In this document: positions 28,950 to 33,168 of the stretch, piece by piece
Layout: every line of letters starts with the position of its first letter
Numbering within the stretch: position 1 is the first letter of the stretch
Assembly: GCA_026396275.1 (NCBI GenBank)
Contig: JAPLXC010000019.1
Location: 355 to 64,354, forward strand
Source: Candidatus Moraniibacteriota bacterium
Lineage (GTDB): Bacteria > Patescibacteriota > Minisyncoccia > Moranbacterales > JAPLXC01
Reading direction: 5' to 3'
DNA: 64,000 nucleotides
The notes under the pieces: model-generated
Databases searched by the model: none
Seen by the model: only the letters and a program-made list of their open reading frames with translations
What the model was told of the DNA's origin: nothing
Position numbers and translations under genes: made by a program

Positions 28950-30020
28950 ATGAAAAGCCCATCTCTTACCAAGGAGGCGCAAAAAGAAGAAAAAGATGTT
29001 TCTGGCGGTGATTTTTGCTTTCAAAAAGCCCTAAATGAGGTTACTTCCGGCTTTCCGGAACGTTCTCGCAGCATAATTTTGATGCGTTACGGGATCAGCC
29101 AGAAGAATCCGAAAACGCTTGAGGAAATCGGCAATTCCTACCGCGTTACCCGGGAAAGAATACGGCAGATAATCCGGGAAGTTATCAAAAAAGTTGAGGA
29201 GAAGAAAGAAAATCCCATTTTGCAGGAGGTAAGCAGAAAAATAACATTTACAGTAAACGAAAAGAGTGGTATAATAAAGAAAAAAGAACTGATAAAACTG
29301 CTTGGTAAGGGGAATGAAAAAGAGTCCGGAGCGGTTGAATTTTTCTTGGATTGCCTGAAAGACCCGGTAATGGCGGAAACCAAAGGCGAAATGGAAGAGT
29401 CCTGTATTCGGATTGAGTTTGACTTGGATTATTGGAAAAAAATAAAAGACATTGCCAAAAACGTTTTGGAAGCCGAGGGGAAACCAATTAATGACGATGA
29501 GTTGGCGAAGAAAATTTTACTCCAGGTTCCAGCCATAACCCGGAAAAAACTGTTTGATTACCTGGCTCCCTCAAAAGAAATCGTAAAAAATAATTTTGGA
29601 AAGTGGGGACTGGATAATTGGCCGGAAATTACTCCTAAAGGAACACGGGAGAAAGCGTATCTCATGCTCAAAGAAAGCGACCGGCCGCTTCATTTCAGAG
29701 AAGTCGCGTCTCTTATTGATCATTACAAGCTTAGCAAGAAAAAGACCCATCCCCAGACGGTTCACAATGAACTTATCAAAGACAGCCGCTTTGTGTTAGT
29801 GGGAAGAGGGGTTTACGCTCTGTCTTCCTGGGGATACAAAAAGGGAACAGTCAAGGAAGTGCTGGAGGAAATTTTAAAAAATAATAAAGGGCCGATGAAA
29901 CGCGGGGATATACTCAATCAGATACTCAAAGTGCGCCAAGTCAAAAAATCGACGGTAATAATCAATCTTAATAATTTTTTTCTGAAAACTGGCAGAGATG
30001 AGTACACCATTCGCCGGTAA
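28950..30020 (+). CDS. DNA-binding protein with a sigma-70 region-4-like HTH and a HARE-HTH (RNAP delta-like) domain
   Basis: LEEIGNSYRVTRERIRQI (region 4). PLHFREVASLID...THPQTVHNELIKDSRFVLVGRGVYALSSWGY (HARE-HTH pattern). Confidence 0.55.
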   Translation: MKSPSLTKEAQKEEKDVSGGDFCFQKALNEVTSGFPERSRSIILMRYGISQKNPKTLEEIGNSYRVTRERIRQIIREVIKKVEEKKENPILQEVSRKITFTVNEKSGIIKKKELIKLLGKGNEKESGAVEFFLDCLKDPVMAETKGEMEESCIRIEFDLDYWKKIKDIAKNVLEAEGKPINDDELAKKILLQVPAITRKKLFDYLAPSKEIVKNNFGKWGLDNWPEITPKGTREKAYLMLKESDRPLHFREVASLIDHYKLSKKKTHPQTVHNELIKDSRFVLVGRGVYALSSWGYKKGTVKEVLEEILKNNKGPMKRGDILNQILKVRQVKKSTVIINLNNFFLKTGRDEYTIRR

Positions 30021-30048: not shown

Positions 30049-31332
30049 ATGGATTTTTTTGTACAAATTTTTAAAGATCTCTTTGAAAACGCAAAAGCCA
30101 TAGGGAACATATTTTCGTATGTCTGGTTTATCGTGTTGCCTATGGCTTTTTATTATTTGTTCAAAGTTCTGTGGCTGGAATATATTCGCACCCGGTACGG
30201 GAAATCCATTAAATACGTTCTTTTAGAGATCATTCCGCCGCGCAACGTTGAAAAAAGCCCCAAGCCGATGGAGTCGCTCTACTGGGGAATATCAGGAGTG
30301 TTAAAGACATTCAACGCTCTGGAAGAATTTGTAAAGGGAATGACCACCTTCAAATTCAGTTTGGAACTGATGAGCAGTGAAGGCACGGTCCATTTTTACA
30401 TTAGGACCCCGGTGCAATTCCGCAATTTGGTTGAGGCCCATCTCTACGCCCAGTATCCGGACGCGGTAATCAAAGAGGCCCCGGATTATATTAATGAAGT
30501 TCCCAAGATCGTTCCCAATCGCGAATGGAATCTCTGGGGAACGGACTTTGAGCTGGTAAAACCCGATCTTTATCCCATCCGGACTTTTCGCTATTTTGAA
30601 GAAGATATCACCGGAAAAATGATTGATCCTTTATCCGGACTAGTGGAAACAATGGGAAAATTGGGACCAAACCAAAAAATCTGGTTTCAGTATGTTATCG
30701 TGCCCGAATATGAAGTTCATAAACCCTGGGTAACTGCGAGCCGGGCGGTAATAGATAAACTAGCCGGAAGAGACAAGAAACAGGAAAGTGTCTGGAGCAG
30801 AATCTGGAGCGATATTGTTGATGTTATTTCCAATATCGGAAACGCTCTTTTCGGACCGGTTGAATTTACCAAGAAGGAAGAAGCCAAAGAAGAAGCGCCG
30901 CTTGAATTCCGCCTTACTCCAGTAGAAAAAGAAATACTCAAAGCGGTGGAAAACAACTTCGGAAAAAACGCTTTTAAGGTCAAAATGCGCTTTATTTATT
31001 TTGGGAAAACAGAAAATTACGACCCGACTTTTATTTCCGCATTCGTCGGCGGGATCAAGCAGTTCAATGACATCAATCTCAACAGCTTCAAGCCCTATGA
31101 TAAAGCGAAAACATTCGCTGATTATATTTTAGTAGAACCCCGTTTGCGCCACCGGCAAAGAAAAATTTTCCGCCGTTACCGGGACCGGGACACCGATGGC
31201 AAGACCTTTTATCTTAGCACCGAAGAACTGGCCACTGTCTATCATCTTCCCGATATGTCGGTAGTGGCGCCGTCTGTTACCTATGTGGAAGCCAAAAGGG
31301 GAGGAGCGCCGGCTAATTTGCCAGTTGAATGA
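30049..31332 (+). CDS. Hypothetical membrane-anchored protein, partner of the downstream ATPase
   Basis: Single N-terminal TM helix. 427 aa with no recognisable catalytic motif. Only 85 bp upstream of the ATPase gene. Confidence 0.45.
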   Translation: MDFFVQIFKDLFENAKAIGNIFSYVWFIVLPMAFYYLFKVLWLEYIRTRYGKSIKYVLLEIIPPRNVEKSPKPMESLYWGISGVLKTFNALEEFVKGMTTFKFSLELMSSEGTVHFYIRTPVQFRNLVEAHLYAQYPDAVIKEAPDYINEVPKIVPNREWNLWGTDFELVKPDLYPIRTFRYFEEDITGKMIDPLSGLVETMGKLGPNQKIWFQYVIVPEYEVHKPWVTASRAVIDKLAGRDKKQESVWSRIWSDIVDVISNIGNALFGPVEFTKKEEAKEEAPLEFRLTPVEKEILKAVENNFGKNAFKVKMRFIYFGKTENYDPTFISAFVGGIKQFNDINLNSFKPYDKAKTFADYILVEPRLRHRQRKIFRRYRDRDTDGKTFYLSTEELATVYHLPDMSVVAPSVTYVEAKRGGAPANLPVE

Positions 31333-31416
31333 TACGAATAATAATCCGAATTAGATCCGAATAAGATGCGAATTTGAATTCAGATTTGGATGTAATTTGG
31401 ACAATAATTCGAATAT

Positions 31417-33168
31417 ATGTCAGATGTAACATTCTTCGCCAAAACCAATTTCCGCAACGAGGAGCAGACATTTGGAATTAAAACCGACGACCGGCGCCGG
31501 CATATGTATGTTATTGGAAAAACCGGAATGGGGAAAACTAATCTTCTGGAGCACATGGCGATTCAAGACATCAAAAACGGACACGGCATAGCCTATGTTG
31601 ATCCCCATGGCGACACGGCGGAAAAAATAATTAAAACCATTCCTTCAAACAGAATAAACGATGTCATATATTTTAACCCGGCTGACCAGGATTATCCGAT
31701 TGCTTTCAATGTGATGGAAAAAGTTGATCCGGAATGCCGCCATTTAGTAGCTTCCGGACTGGTAGGCGTATTCAAAAAAATCTGGGCGGATTCCTGGGGG
31801 CCGAGATTGGAATATATTTTAAGAAACGCGATTCTTTCCCTTCTTGAATATCCCGGAGCGACACTTCTGGGGGTCACCAGAATGCTGGTTGATAAAAATT
31901 ACCGCATTCGGGTGGTAAATAAATTAACCGATCCGGTAGTAAGATCTTTCTGGGTGGATGAATTCACCAAATGGAATGAGCGGGTTCTGCAGGAAGTCGT
32001 TTCTCCGATTCAAAATAAAGTTGGGCAGTTTTTATCAAGCGCGCTTATCAGAAATATAGTAGGCCAGACCAAATCTTCCTTTGATATAAGGGAAATTATG
32101 GATAATAAAAAAATACTTATCCTTAATCTTTCCAAGGGGAGAATCGGGGAGGATAATAGCGCGCTTCTGGGAGCGATGATGATAACGAAGATCCAGCTCG
32201 CCGCCATGGCGAGGATTGATATTCCCGAAGAAGAACGGAAAGATTTTTATCTTTATGTCGATGAATTTCAGAATTTTGCGACGGAATCCTTTGCCAATAT
32301 ATTGTCCGAAGCGAGAAAGTACCGGCTTAATTTGACTTTGGCCAATCAATATATCACGCAAATTGACGAAATAGTGAGAGATGCCATTTTTGGAAACGCG
32401 GGGACGCTTGTTACTTTCCGGGTAGGGGCGGTTGACGCGGAATTTATGGAAAAAGAATTTGAGCCGATATTTATGCTGAACGATCTAGTTAATCTTCCAA
32501 AATACAACATTTATCTTAAATTGATGATAGACGGAATAGCCGGCGATGCGTTTTCAGCTGTGACGCTTCCGCCAATTGACATCAGAGATACCGAAGGAAA
32601 TGCCGGCAAAGTGATAAAAGTTTCCCGCGAGCGATACGCGTCAAGCCGGGCCGAAGTTGAGGATAAAATTAACCGCTGGAGCGGGATGCTGCCGGCAGAA
32701 ACAGTACAAAAAATAGAGAGGCCAAGCAACCAGAAAACTGAAGAACTAAGCAGTCCTGTAGAGCCAGTGGTAGTTGGACGCGAGGCAAGCCAAGTGGCTA
32801 AACAGCTATTTAACGCCGTCTGCGACACCTGCGGTGTGGGAATTCAGGTTCCCTTTGAGCCGGACGGGAGAAGGCCCACGTTTTGCAGAGAGTGTCTGAA
32901 AGATTACCAGCGGACGATGGCGCGGGGCAAAGACCAGGAATCAAGAATTAGAAATCCGGAACTAGTGAGAAAAAATAATATAGACAGGAATAAAGAAAAA
33001 GAAGTTAAGAAAACAGAATTGAAGGCCTATATTCCGCAAGAAAACCCCCTAAAACTTTCTCAAATTCAGCACGTGGCTCCGAAAAAATTTCAGTCCACCC
33101 GCAAAAAGCCGGAAGTGAATCTGGAGGAAGTGAGGAAGTTGATTAAGGAAAGCAGAAATGAAAATTAA
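31417..33168 (+). CDS. FtsK/HerA-superfamily P-loop ATPase (VirD4/TraG coupling-protein-like) with a C-terminal CxxC...CxxC zinc ribbon
   Basis: Walker A VIGKTGMGKT at residue ~36, VDPHGD, Walker B LYVDEFQNF, ARKYRLNLTLANQ, and a terminal CDTCG...CRECL ribbon. No TM segment. Confidence 0.6.
   Translation: MSDVTFFAKTNFRNEEQTFGIKTDDRRRHMYVIGKTGMGKTNLLEHMAIQDIKNGHGIAYVDPHGDTAEKIIKTIPSNRINDVIYFNPADQDYPIAFNVMEKVDPECRHLVASGLVGVFKKIWADSWGPRLEYILRNAILSLLEYPGATLLGVTRMLVDKNYRIRVVNKLTDPVVRSFWVDEFTKWNERVLQEVVSPIQNKVGQFLSSALIRNIVGQTKSSFDIREIMDNKKILILNLSKGRIGEDNSALLGAMMITKIQLAAMARIDIPEEERKDFYLYVDEFQNFATESFANILSEARKYRLNLTLANQYITQIDEIVRDAIFGNAGTLVTFRVGAVDAEFMEKEFEPIFMLNDLVNLPKYNIYLKLMIDGIAGDAFSAVTLPPIDIRDTEGNAGKVIKVSRERYASSRAEVEDKINRWSGMLPAETVQKIERPSNQKTEELSSPVEPVVVGREASQVAKQLFNAVCDTCGVGIQVPFEPDGRRPTFCRECLKDYQRTMARGKDQESRIRNPELVRKNNIDRNKEKEVKKTELKAYIPQENPLKLSQIQHVAPKKFQSTRKKPEVNLEEVRKLIKESRNEN

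What the first reader, a model, noticed from the sequence alone, without database searches (positions are those of the whole stretch)
30049..33168. Two-gene module: single-TM protein plus FtsK/VirD4-like ATPase with a C-terminal zinc ribbon
The 583-aa ATPase has Walker A at residue ~36 (GKTGMGKT), a DPHGD motif, Walker B VDEFQNF and an RK-x-R...LANQ motif typical of the FtsK/HerA/VirD4 clade. It lacks the N-terminal TM helices of coupling proteins and ends in a CxxC-x14-CxxC zinc ribbon. The preceding 427-aa protein supplies a single N-terminal TM helix and is otherwise unrecognisable. This may be a split type IV coupling-protein-like DNA/protein translocase, but no VirB4, VirB6 or relaxase is nearby. 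It could instead be a stand-alone translocation or defence ATPase module.
Basis: partly seen in the sequence, partly recalled or inferred. Interest (0 to 1): 0.6.

Follow-up and report, generated by a model that had tools for sequence, protein, structure and literature searches.

The report
Split type IV coupling-protein ATPase
The two genes are the halves of one protein that is a single polypeptide in most other ultra-small (CPR/Patescibacteria) bacteria: a membrane-anchored, VirD4-type "coupling" ATPase already noted as a near-universal orphan in this phylum, here split in two, given a zinc ribbon, locked to a DNA/RNA-polymerase-type binding protein, and still without a known job.

Summary
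Genes at 30049-31332 (427 aa, one N-terminal TM helix) and 31417-33168 (583 aa ATPase with zinc ribbon) exist as described, in a Candidatus Moranbacteria contig. They are a gene fission, not a new two-component machine. In other CPR classes, an Embleya (Actinomycetota) plasmid and Bacillus phage G, the same two parts form one 726-1142 aa protein: DUF8128 (PF26449) followed by a VirD4/TrwB-type ATPase. The split maps exactly to the domain boundary. The ATPase matches coupling proteins only (TrwB, DotL, Cagbeta), not VirB4, FtsK or HerA. The DUF8128 half has a predicted fold like the VirB4 N-terminal domain, with no sequence support. Across 80 Moranbacteria loci the conserved unit is three genes: a sigma-70-region-4 plus HARE-HTH protein, then A, then B. 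The ATPase core is about 80% identical between species, against about 57% for AlaS. No T4SS gene lies in the window, but related genomes carrying this module encode VirB4-TrsD-VirB3 elsewhere. A 2025 survey already reported such orphan T4CP homologues in 2,918 of 3,035 Patescibacteria genomes. Best reading: a split T4SS coupling ATPase, possibly exapted. It is a new variant of a known kind, of moderate interest.

The parts
28950..30020 (+). Upstream partner gene (356 aa): sigma-70 region 4 (about residues 24-94) plus an RNA-polymerase-delta-like HARE-HTH (about 234-297). It has no sigma region 2, so it is not a complete sigma factor.
   Evidence: Pfam Sigma70_r4 2.2e-11 and HARE-HTH 1.4e-17. 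TIGR04567 RNAP delta scores 44 bits against a cut-off of 42. It lies directly upstream of A in 79 of 80 loci. It is one of only three gene families shared by the loci. It is 28 nt from A, with no terminator between them.
30049..31332 (+). Gene A (427 aa): the membrane-anchored DUF8128 protein. It is the N-terminal half of the ancestral DUF8128-T4CP protein.
   Evidence: ORF. PF26449/DUF8128 on the identical protein P0001. Residues 24-427 align to residues 15-383 of the fused Berkelbacteria protein P0423 at E 5e-50. The AF2 model has pLDDT 77.
30121..30177 (+). Single TM helix of gene A (residues 25-43), predicted N-out / C-in.
   Evidence: Kyte-Doolittle window 1.82. Flank charges are -1 (N side) and +3 (C side). 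The model has a long N-terminal helix H2-53.
30202..31329 (+). Cytoplasmic DUF8128 domain (residues about 52-427). It consists of alpha/beta subdomains and ends in the invariant ...AP-x-NLP motif. The predicted fold is VirB4-N-terminal-domain-like.
   Evidence: Alignment A1 invariant columns. Foldseek against PDB: the top 13 hits are all TrwK/VirB4, best E 2.7e-5. Foldseek against BFVD: gp156 1e-16 and the VirB4-like gp155 5e-7. There is no sequence-level support.
31333..31416 (+). The 84-nt A-B spacer. It is A+T-rich and carries five CGAAT repeats about 11 nt apart. No terminator is present.
   Evidence: In related loci the spacer is 2-201 nt (median 20) and not conserved.
31417..33168 (+). 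Gene B (583 aa): a soluble VirD4/TrwB-family ATPase (nucleotide-binding domain plus all-alpha domain), followed by a linker, a zinc ribbon and a charged tail.
   Evidence: Pfam TrwB_AAD_bind 42.9 bits (cut-off 20.5), TraG-D_C and T4SS-DNA_transf, all above cut-off. PDB phmmer finds only TrwB and DotL. hhalign against TrwB gives Prob 96%. The Foldseek top 17 hits are all T4CPs.
31516..31539 (+). Walker A, GKTGMGKT (residues 34-41).
   Evidence: Sequence. Invariant in A2. Aligned to the TrwB P-loop.
31714..32106 (+). All-alpha domain inserted between Walker A and Walker B (about residues 100-230).
   Evidence: Eight helices predicted at pLDDT 64-90. The region falls within the hhalign match to TrwB 110-393.
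32257..32349 (+). Walker B VDEFQNF (residues 281-287) and the ARKYRLNLTLANQ arginine/sensor motif (299-311).
   Evidence: Sequence. Invariant. Aligned to TrwB FIDELASL...GRKAGLRVVAGLQ.
32800..32904 (+). CxxC-x17-CxxC treble-clef zinc ribbon (residues 462-496; cysteines at 469, 472, 490 and 493).
   Evidence: TIGR04272 3e-12 and zf_Tbcl_2 3.9e-11. The cysteines are invariant. The motif is present in 118 of 120 split-type homologues but in 1 of 92 fused CPR homologues.
32905..33165 (+). Lys/Glu-rich C-terminal tail. It is variable except for a conserved terminal motif (LSQ-Q--APKKF---RKRP-VNL-EVR).
   Evidence: A2 consensus. Tail identity is only about 44%, against about 80% for the core.

Best explanation
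Genes A and B are the two halves of one ancestral protein, a DUF8128-VirD4-type coupling ATPase found across Patescibacteria. In the Moranbacteria lineage it was split at the domain boundary.

Shown:
- A supplies the single TM helix and a cytoplasmic DUF8128 domain.
- B supplies the TrwB-like nucleotide-binding and all-alpha domains.
- The two genes are always adjacent and co-oriented. The spacer is usually only a few bases, so they are co-expressed.

Inferred:
- A and B reassemble at the inner face of the membrane into a ring-shaped (hexameric) motor like TrwB or VirD4.
- ATP hydrolysis uses Walker A K40, Walker B D282/E283, the arginine of ARKYR and the sensor Q311. It drives a substrate, DNA or unfolded protein, toward a separate membrane channel.
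- One TM helix per subunit cannot form a pore, so a separate channel is needed.
- The most likely channel is the MPF-FATA-derived type IV secretion system (VirB4-TrsD-VirB3-VirB6) that these genomes encode elsewhere.
- The lineage-specific zinc ribbon and the co-conserved sigma-r4/HARE-HTH protein would be nucleic-acid-binding or adaptor parts of substrate selection, analogous to relaxosome accessory proteins that dock on T4CP tails.

Confidence differs by step. The identity and architecture part is about 0.9. The 'works with the T4SS' part is about 0.5.
For: Fission:
- BLASTP maps A 24-427 to residues 15-383 and B 2-424 to residues 389-809 of the fused Berkelbacteria protein P0423. The same holds for P0419 and P0422.
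- PHROG 5156 covers A at profile positions 24-357 and B at 407-815.
- Fused DUF8128+TrwB_AAD_bind proteins occur in Berkelbacteria, Falkowbacteria, Saccharibacteria and Gottesmanbacteria.
- A diverse DUF8128 alignment matches the N-half of the Embleya plasmid T4CP at Prob 99.1%.

T4CP identity of B. VirB4 is matched only at the P-loop.

T4SS linkage of relatives:
- The CPR contig L088 has the DUF8128-T4CP next to PrgI/VirB3-like and VirB4-like genes.
- The Embleya plasmid has the order TrbL-PrgI-VirB4-T4CP-Replic_Relax-NlpC/P60.
- Phage G has TrbL_4 (gp153), a VirB4-like protein (gp155) and gp156.

T4SS elsewhere in genomes carrying this module: PMC12102498 Tables S1 and S3.

Co-conservation: 78 of 80 loci. 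Only three gene families are shared across the loci.

Precedent for a soluble T4CP anchored by a separate membrane protein: pIP501 TraJ/TraI (PMC12857230).
Against: - No T4SS gene lies in the 64-kb window or within +/-7 kb in 80 related loci.
- Only 148 of 5,713 Patescibacteria T4CP homologues lie near virB4. They occur in 2,918 of 3,035 genomes, whereas VirB4 occurs in 2,417.
- The Southlakia homologue was reported as not essential for epibiotic growth, while the T4SS genes are essential (PMC12102498).
- Wang et al. saw no recognisable coupling protein in the T4SS cluster.
- The ATPase core is far more conserved (median 80% identity) than AlaS (57%), PheT (54%) or MnmA (47%) in the same loci. 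By my own expectation, not measured here, that is unusual for a coupling protein.
- Flanks are housekeeping and replication genes such as dnaX, gyrBA and DivIC.
- The B structural model is poor (pLDDT 56).
- No complex prediction could be run.
Confidence: 0.55

Rival explanations
1. This is an exapted, T4SS-independent housekeeping motor. In this reading the DUF8128-T4CP has been recruited in Patescibacteria as a membrane-tethered nucleic-acid translocase or remodeller. Possible roles are chromosome or replication-linked DNA handling, DNA uptake, or clearing or anchoring of transcription complexes. In Moranbacteria it would be guided by the sigma-r4/HARE-HTH protein and the zinc ribbon.
For: - The family is present in more genomes than VirB4, at about two copies per genome, and is almost never next to virB4. 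The authors themselves say exaptation cannot be ruled out.
- The ATPase core is 80% identical, against 57% for AlaS.
- There is recurrent proximity to dnaX, gyrB/gyrA, DnaB and DivIC.
- It is tightly linked to a protein built of RNAP-binding/DNA-binding modules.
- The zinc ribbon was gained with the split.
Against: - Relatives outside CPR, and one CPR lineage, sit inside T4SS clusters.
- MAG incompleteness could explain genomes with a T4CP but no VirB4.
- An ftsK gene is reported in the Saccharibacteria strain TM7x, so a simple FtsK replacement is not needed.
- The proximity to replication genes is weak evidence in roughly 1-Mb genomes.
- The sigma-r4/HARE-HTH link was seen only in the Moranbacteria-type loci. 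Fused copies in other classes have unrelated small upstream ORFs.
Confidence: 0.27
2. This is an anti-phage defence ATPase. In this reading gene B is a mad8-like component of a MADS-type or HerA-type defence system.
For: The PADLOC mad8 profile gives the best single-family E-value, 2.7e-19, over residues 5-366. There are also weak HerA defence-profile hits.
Against: - No other defence-system gene is adjacent. The neighbours are pheT, a DHODH-like gene, mnmA and alaS.
- Gene A has no PADLOC hit.
- The family is near-universal in the phylum, is extremely conserved and sits in stable core-genome positions. By general knowledge, defence islands behave the opposite way.
- The mad8 hit is explained by shared VirD4-type ATPase ancestry.
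Confidence: 0.04
3. This is an artefact or a pseudogene. In this reading the split is a frameshift or assembly error in a normally fused gene.
For: Fused versions are the rule elsewhere.
Against: - The same split, with its own stop and start codons, is present in 78 of 80 independent assemblies. Spacers range from 2 to 201 nt.
- At least 150 clusters at 50% identity consist of stand-alone A-type proteins of about 400-576 aa.
- Both halves are under strong purifying selection.
Confidence: 0.01

Closest known systems
Orphan VirD4-like T4CP homologues of Patescibacteria (Quinonero-Coronel et al. 2025, Microb Genom, PMC12102498)
   Same: This is the same protein family. NCBI names B 'type IV secretion system DNA-binding domain-containing protein'. 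The survey found it in 2,918 of 3,035 genomes, usually far from virB4 and with unknown function. A genome that carries this exact three-gene block is listed with two unlinked T4CPs plus a VirB4-TrsD-VirB3 cluster.
   Different: In the parts of the main text and supplement I read or searched, I found no mention of the DUF8128 N-terminal half, its VirB4-NTD-like fold, the split form, the zinc ribbon, the sigma-r4/HARE-HTH partner or the unusually high conservation.
TrwB (R388) / VirD4 / DotL / Cagbeta coupling proteins
   Same: B shares the nucleotide-binding domain with an inserted all-alpha domain, Walker A and B, and the arginine and Q motifs. hhalign gives Prob 96% over 267 columns. All 17 significant Foldseek PDB hits are these proteins.
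   Different: - Canonical T4CPs carry an N-terminal TM domain on the same chain and no DUF8128 domain (TM number from general knowledge).
- They are encoded with a relaxase or a T4SS.
- Here the anchor is a separate protein with one TM helix plus a roughly 375-aa cytoplasmic domain.
- There is a C-terminal zinc ribbon.
- No relaxase or T4SS gene is nearby.
pIP501 TraJ (soluble T4CP) with TraI as proposed membrane anchor
   Same: The design is the same: a coupling ATPase without a TM domain, tethered by a separately encoded membrane protein (PMC12857230).
   Different: TraI is a small two-TM protein. Homology to DUF8128 was not tested here. In this module the anchor is demonstrably the detached N-terminal half of the same ancestral protein.
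Fused DUF8128-T4CP proteins of Gram-positive T4SS-like clusters (Embleya plasmid 812-aa protein; Bacillus phage G gp156; SPO1-like phage proteins; PHROG 5156)
   Same: They have the same two-part architecture in one chain. B is 29-30% identical to their C-halves, and A is detectable in their N-halves.
   Different: They lie next to TrbL/VirB6-like, PrgI/VirB3-like and VirB4-like genes, and in Embleya a Replic_Relax protein. The phage and Embleya proteins examined show no zinc-ribbon Pfam hit. gp156 has an internal rather than N-terminal hydrophobic segment.
VirB4 (TrwK) ATPases
   Same: The overall layout is the same: a membrane-associated N-terminal alpha/beta domain followed by an FtsK-HerA-type P-loop domain. 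The predicted fold of A hits TrwK and the VirB4-like gp155.
   Different: The ATPase half is VirD4-like, not VirB4-like. There is no sequence similarity between DUF8128 and the VirB4 N-terminal domains, TrsD or VirB3.

Membership tests
Type IV coupling protein (VirD4/TrwB/TraG/TraD family) | FtsK-HerA-type P-loop nucleotide-binding domain whose closest relatives are T4CPs | tested here: met
   TrwB_AAD_bind, TraG-D_C and T4SS-DNA_transf all score above the Pfam cut-offs. PDB phmmer finds only TrwB and DotL. The Foldseek top 17 hits are all T4CPs. hhalign against TrwB gives Prob 96%, against 5% for VirB4.
Type IV coupling protein (VirD4/TrwB/TraG/TraD family) | All-alpha domain inserted between Walker A and Walker B | tested here: met
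   Helices are predicted at residues 105-229 with pLDDT 64-90. The region falls inside the alignment to TrwB 110-393.
Type IV coupling protein (VirD4/TrwB/TraG/TraD family) | N-terminal transmembrane domain on the same polypeptide | tested here: not met
   B has no TM segment. The anchor, one TM helix, is on gene A. The two are fused in other CPR classes.
Type IV coupling protein (VirD4/TrwB/TraG/TraD family) | Encoded with, or functionally tied to, a T4SS (VirB4) and/or a relaxase | tested here: inconclusive
   There is none in the window or in 80 related loci. Relatives lie next to VirB4 and VirB3. VirB4 is present elsewhere in four genomes that carry the module. The rest of this genome cannot be searched.
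Type IV coupling protein (VirD4/TrwB/TraG/TraD family) | Recruits substrates to the secretion channel and is required for transfer | not testable with these tools
   This needs genetics or biochemistry. The literature reports the Southlakia homologue as non-essential.
DUF8128 (Pfam PF26449) | Match to the family model | tested here: met
   PF26449.1 is precomputed on P0001, which is 100% identical to gene A, and on all 120 listed homologues. The name is given. The local Pfam copy lacks the model.
VirB4 ATPase | VirB4-type C-terminal ATPase (AAA_10 / P-loop_TraG / CagE_TrbE_VirB signatures) | tested here: not met
   None of these Pfam families hit B at E <= 0.1. hhalign against TrwK matches the P-loop only.
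VirB4 ATPase | VirB4-type N-terminal domain | tested here: inconclusive
FtsK/SpoIIIE DNA translocase | FtsK_SpoIIIE motor domain, multi-TM N-terminus and gamma (winged-helix) domain | tested here: not met
   There is no FtsK_SpoIIIE Pfam hit at E <= 0.1 and no FtsK chain in the PDB searches. The anchor is a single TM helix in trans.
HerA helicase | HerA central and C-terminal domains, with a NurA partner | tested here: not met
   The DUF87 hit (23.6 bits against a cut-off of 23.2) covers only the P-loop region 27-66. HerA_C is below its cut-off. No nuclease neighbour is present.
MADS defence system (mad8) | mad8-like ATPase together with the other system genes | tested here: not met
   The mad8 profile hit is 2.7e-19, but the neighbours are housekeeping genes and gene A has no PADLOC hit.
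CxxC-x17-CxxC domain (TIGR04272 / zf_Tbcl_2) | Four cysteines with the conserved spacing, and a score above the cut-off | tested here: met
   Scores are 46.1 bits against 36 and 42.9 against 27. C469, C472, C490 and C493 are invariant in 41 sequences.

The most novel reading that the evidence does not exclude
The near-universal Patescibacteria DUF8128-T4CP is no longer a secretion coupling protein. In this reading it is a core, membrane-tethered nucleic-acid motor that works without the T4SS. The Moranbacteria three-gene block shows its working parts: a sigma-region-4/RNAP-delta-like HARE-HTH adaptor that selects DNA or RNA polymerase complexes, a VirB4-NTD-like membrane platform (A), and a hyper-conserved VirD4-type motor with a zinc ribbon (B). 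The family would also be an evolutionary intermediate, keeping a VirB4-type N-domain on a VirD4-type motor.
Probability: 0.25. Interest if true: 0.75.

Novelty: new variant of a known kind. Interest (0 to 1): 0.5.

Why it matters
Patescibacteria make up a large share of bacterial diversity and have tiny genomes. Even so, 96% of surveyed genomes keep one or two VirD4-like ATPases whose role is unknown and which are almost never next to the T4SS.

This locus adds concrete handles to that open question:
- The protein has a second, VirB4-NTD-like half (DUF8128).
- Nature has separated that half from the motor in one lineage, which gives a ready-made system for interaction and reconstitution experiments.
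- The motor is more conserved than aminoacyl-tRNA synthetases in the same genomes. That argues for a central cellular role rather than an accessory one.
- The split form gained a zinc ribbon.
- The split form is locked to a sigma-r4/HARE-HTH protein, which points to a nucleic-acid or RNA-polymerase connection that can be tested.

If the motor does couple to the essential T4SS of these epibionts, it is the missing coupling protein. If it does not, it is a case of a conjugation motor turned into a housekeeping machine.

Tried and rejected
- The local Pfam, NCBIfam and PADLOC scans of gene A found nothing. Its family name came only from precomputed annotation.
- A PDB sequence search with the gene A profile gave no meaningful hit.
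- hhalign of DUF8128 alignments against TrwK, TrsE, phage G gp155, Embleya VirB4, a CPR VirB4, TrsD, TrwM/VirB3 and PrgI proteins all gave Prob below 2% once the ATPase start was trimmed off. An untrimmed run gave a spurious TrwB match caused by the included P-loops. The VirB4-NTD resemblance therefore rests on Foldseek alone.
- The gene B structure prediction was poor (pLDDT 56), probably because the alignment was too shallow.
- Literature searches for PF26449, DUF8128 and mad8/MADS composition returned nothing useful.
- An FtsK-replacement idea was weakened because TM7x has an annotated ftsK. I could not check whether that annotation is a true FtsK.
- The genome-contig scan returned only Moranbacteria-type loci because its patterns were narrow. 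Broader taxonomic context had to come from six contig look-ups.
- I looked for a conserved element in the A-B spacer and found none.
- The small ORFs upstream of fused copies in other classes are unrelated to each other and to the sigma-r4/HARE-HTH protein on inspection. The two that were scanned have no Pfam hit.

Full report
**What is there**

The window is a Candidatus Moranbacteria (Patescibacteria/CPR) contig. Both proteins are 100% identical to NCBI MAG proteins from a 65-kb contig.

One correction applies: the zinc ribbon spacing is CxxC-x17-CxxC. It passes the curated cut-offs of TIGR04272 and Pfam zf_Tbcl_2.

A has one hydrophobic helix, residues 25-43. Its flanks are charged -1 on the N side and +3 on the C side, which puts the large domain in the cytoplasm. 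B has no TM segment.

**The ATPase is a VirD4-type coupling protein**

- B passes the Pfam cut-offs of TrwB_AAD_bind, TraG-D_C and T4SS-DNA_transf.
- The only solved structures found by sequence are TrwB and DotL.
- A profile of B aligns to R388 TrwB over 267 columns, from the P-loop through the all-alpha domain to Walker B and the arginine/Q motif (Prob 96%).
- Against R388 VirB4 only the P-loop aligns (Prob 5%).
- The AF2 model of B is poor (pLDDT 56). Even so, all 17 significant Foldseek hits in the PDB are coupling proteins: DotL, TrwB and Cagbeta.
- FtsK, HerA and VirB4 signatures are absent or restricted to the P-loop.
- The best PADLOC hit, mad8 (2.7e-19), reflects this shared ATPase type. 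Nothing else about the locus looks like a defence system.

**The two genes are one protein cut in two**

- A belongs to Pfam DUF8128 (PF26449) by precomputed annotation.
- PHROG 5156, an 824-position profile, matches A at positions 24-357 and B at 407-815.
- Bacillus phage G gp156 (825 aa) is such a fused protein.
- A search with gp156 brought up about ninety fused CPR proteins of 726-1142 aa, most annotated with both DUF8128 and TrwB_AAD_bind. The named ones come from Berkelbacteria, Falkowbacteria, Saccharibacteria and Gottesmanbacteria.
- BLASTP maps A 24-427 onto residues 15-383, and B 2-424 onto residues 389-809, of the Berkelbacteria protein P0423. The break falls right after the conserved ...AP-x-NLP motif.
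- A diverse DUF8128 alignment also recognises the N-half of an 812-aa coupling protein on an Embleya plasmid (Prob 99.1%).

Fused forms occur in phages, an Actinomycetota plasmid and the other CPR classes sampled. Fission in the Moranbacteria lineage is therefore the parsimonious direction (inference).

The split is not an artefact. It recurs in 78 of 80 independent assemblies with spacers of 2-201 nt. At least 150 clusters at 50% identity are stand-alone A-type proteins.

**What DUF8128 looks like**

The AF2 model of A is usable (pLDDT 77, pTM 0.73).

- In the PDB its 13 best Foldseek hits are all TrwK/VirB4 chains of the R388 T4SS (best E 2.7e-5, prob 1.0, TM only 0.28-0.36).
- In the viral library it hits gp156 and SPO1-like phage homologues (E about 1e-16). 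It also hits the VirB4-like gp155 of phage G (5e-7).
- Profile comparisons with VirB4 N-domains, TrsD and VirB3/PrgI give nothing.

I therefore treat 'VirB4-N-terminal-domain-like' as a structural lead, not an established homology. If it is correct, the family combines a VirB4-type N-domain with a VirD4-type motor.

**Context**

The conserved unit is three genes, not two. In 79 of 80 loci the gene upstream of A is the homologue of window 28950-30020. That protein has a sigma-70 region 4 and an RNAP-delta-like HARE-HTH.

Clustering all ORFs of the 80 loci shows which families are shared:
- The upstream gene occurs in 73 loci, A in 74 and B in 66.
- The next most common neighbours occur in 25 loci or fewer. 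They include dnaX, a PPIase, HtrA and DivIC.

No terminator separates the three genes.

The zinc ribbon goes with the split form. It is present in 118 of 120 split-type homologues and in 1 of 92 fused CPR homologues.

No T4SS component is detectable in the window or in the 80 loci.

**Relatives in T4SS clusters, and T4SS elsewhere in these genomes**

- In a 996-kb CPR contig the fused protein lies back-to-back with PrgI/VirB3-like and VirB4-like genes.
- On the Embleya plasmid the order is TrbL(VirB6)-PrgI-VirB4-T4CP-Replic_Relax-NlpC/P60.
- Phage G has a TrbL_4 protein and a VirB4-like protein next to gp156.
- Other CPR copies sit among housekeeping genes.
- Berkelbacteria carry two paralogues in tandem.

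The 2025 survey of Patescibacteria T4SS (PMC12102498) reports the following:
- VirD4-like T4CP homologues occur in 2,918 of 3,035 genomes, 5,713 in total.
- Only 148 of them lie near virB4.
- VirB4 occurs in 2,417 genomes.
- The Southlakia homologue is non-essential, and the authors say exaptation cannot be excluded.

Its supplementary tables list four genomes that carry my three-gene block as VirB4-positive. One of them (GCA_000990585.1, locus L016) has VirB4-TrsD-VirB3 at genes 334-336 and two unlinked T4CPs at genes 546 and 833.

**An unexpected feature**

Across the related loci the ATPase core (residues 1-430) has a median identity of 80% to the window protein. The comparison values are:

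| Protein | Median identity |
|---|---|
| B core (1-430) | 80% |
| AlaS | 57% |
| PheT | 54% |
| A | 52% |
| MnmA | 47% |
| sigma-r4/HARE-HTH protein | 46.5% |
| B tail | 44% |

A motor more constrained than aminoacyl-tRNA synthetases suggests a central and invariant job.

**Interpretation**

Shown:
- The identity of B as a VirD4-family ATPase.
- The fission.
- The membrane anchor in trans.
- The three-gene conservation.
- The absence of a local T4SS.

Inferred:
- A and B reassemble into a membrane-tethered ring motor.
- One TM helix per subunit cannot make a pore, so the motor must feed another channel or act on substrates inside the cell.

The ancestry of the family and the presence of a T4SS elsewhere make 'coupling ATPase of the Patescibacteria T4SS' the best single explanation (about 0.5). 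A split design has a precedent in pIP501 TraJ/TraI.

The main rival is exaptation to a T4SS-independent nucleic-acid function, at about 0.27. Its support comes from:
- The wider distribution than VirB4.
- The reported non-essentiality.
- The extreme conservation.
- The DNA/RNAP-type partner.
- The zinc ribbon.

Defence and artefact readings are unlikely.

**Verdict**

The finding is real and correctly sensed as a split coupling-protein-like module. It is a lineage-specific variant of an already reported, functionally unexplained Patescibacteria family, not a new kind of system. Interest is moderate at 0.5. It offers testable handles on an open question, and it offers a possible VirB4/VirD4 intermediate architecture.

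Noticed in passing
window 28950-30020 (+); L001-L080 upstream of the match: A 356-aa protein with sigma-70 region 4 plus an RNAP-delta-like HARE-HTH, and no sigma region 2. It lies directly upstream of gene A in 79 of 80 loci. It is one of only three gene families shared by all the loci, so the conserved unit is a three-gene block.
   Followed up: partly
window 31333-31416: The A-B spacer contains five CGAAT motifs about 11 nt apart. Spacers in related loci vary from 2 to 201 nt. Several also carry short periodic repeats (for example L006, L013, L029), but there is no shared motif.
   Followed up: partly
window 31417-32706 versus L001-L080: The ATPase core is about 80% identical across species-level genomes. 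AlaS, PheT and MnmA from the same loci are 47-57% identical. This level of constraint is unusual for a coupling-protein homologue.
   Followed up: yes
L090 2432-8348 (Berkelbacteria contig): Two DUF8128-T4CP paralogues (829 aa and 937 aa) sit in tandem, separated by a 173-aa ORF. CPR appears to have two paralogue types: type I is about 829 aa and is followed by dnaX in L085 and L089, and type II is B-like. This fits the roughly two T4CP homologues per genome reported in PMC12102498.
   Followed up: partly
L081 774-6338 (Bacillus phage G); SPO1-like phages H3-H28: The jumbo phage G encodes a T4SS-like trio: TrbL_4/VirB6-like gp153, VirB4-like gp155 and the DUF8128-T4CP gp156. SPO1-like Bacillus phages carry related ATPases. 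Their role in phage biology is unknown.
   Followed up: partly
L086 8983-10170 (Sulfitobacter mediterraneus plasmid): A 395-aa ATPase-only homologue is 43% identical to B, closer than any Gram-positive relative. It has no DUF8128 half and lies next to transposase genes. It may be a horizontally acquired fragment.
   Followed up: no
L088 3264-5122 (-): In this CPR genome the VirB4-like ATPase is itself called as two adjacent ORFs (387 and 231 aa). This is another split T4SS ATPase, or possibly a frameshift.
   Followed up: no
P0391 residues 182-207; P0423 residues 224-244; gene A residues about 248-268: The variable insert between the two DUF8128 subdomains holds a hydrophobic or amphipathic helix. 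In phage G gp156, which lacks the N-terminal TM helix, it is strong enough to be a membrane segment (Kyte-Doolittle 2.28). It may be an in-plane or re-entrant membrane contact.
   Followed up: no
L007, L008, L017, L023 and about 25 other loci: Many GTDB representative MAGs titled 'uncultured Bdellovibrionales bacterium' carry this Moranbacteria-type block with 50-57% identity to gene A. The organism labels of these records look wrong.
   Followed up: no
L015 2624-4267 (-), L063 5450-5857 and similar; L085 10497-12197; L083 13574-18107: Replication and division genes recur next to DUF8128-T4CP genes in different arrangements. These include dnaX, DnaB, gyrB/gyrA and a DivIC-like septum protein. 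This is weak evidence in roughly 1-Mb genomes and was not tested statistically.
   Followed up: partly
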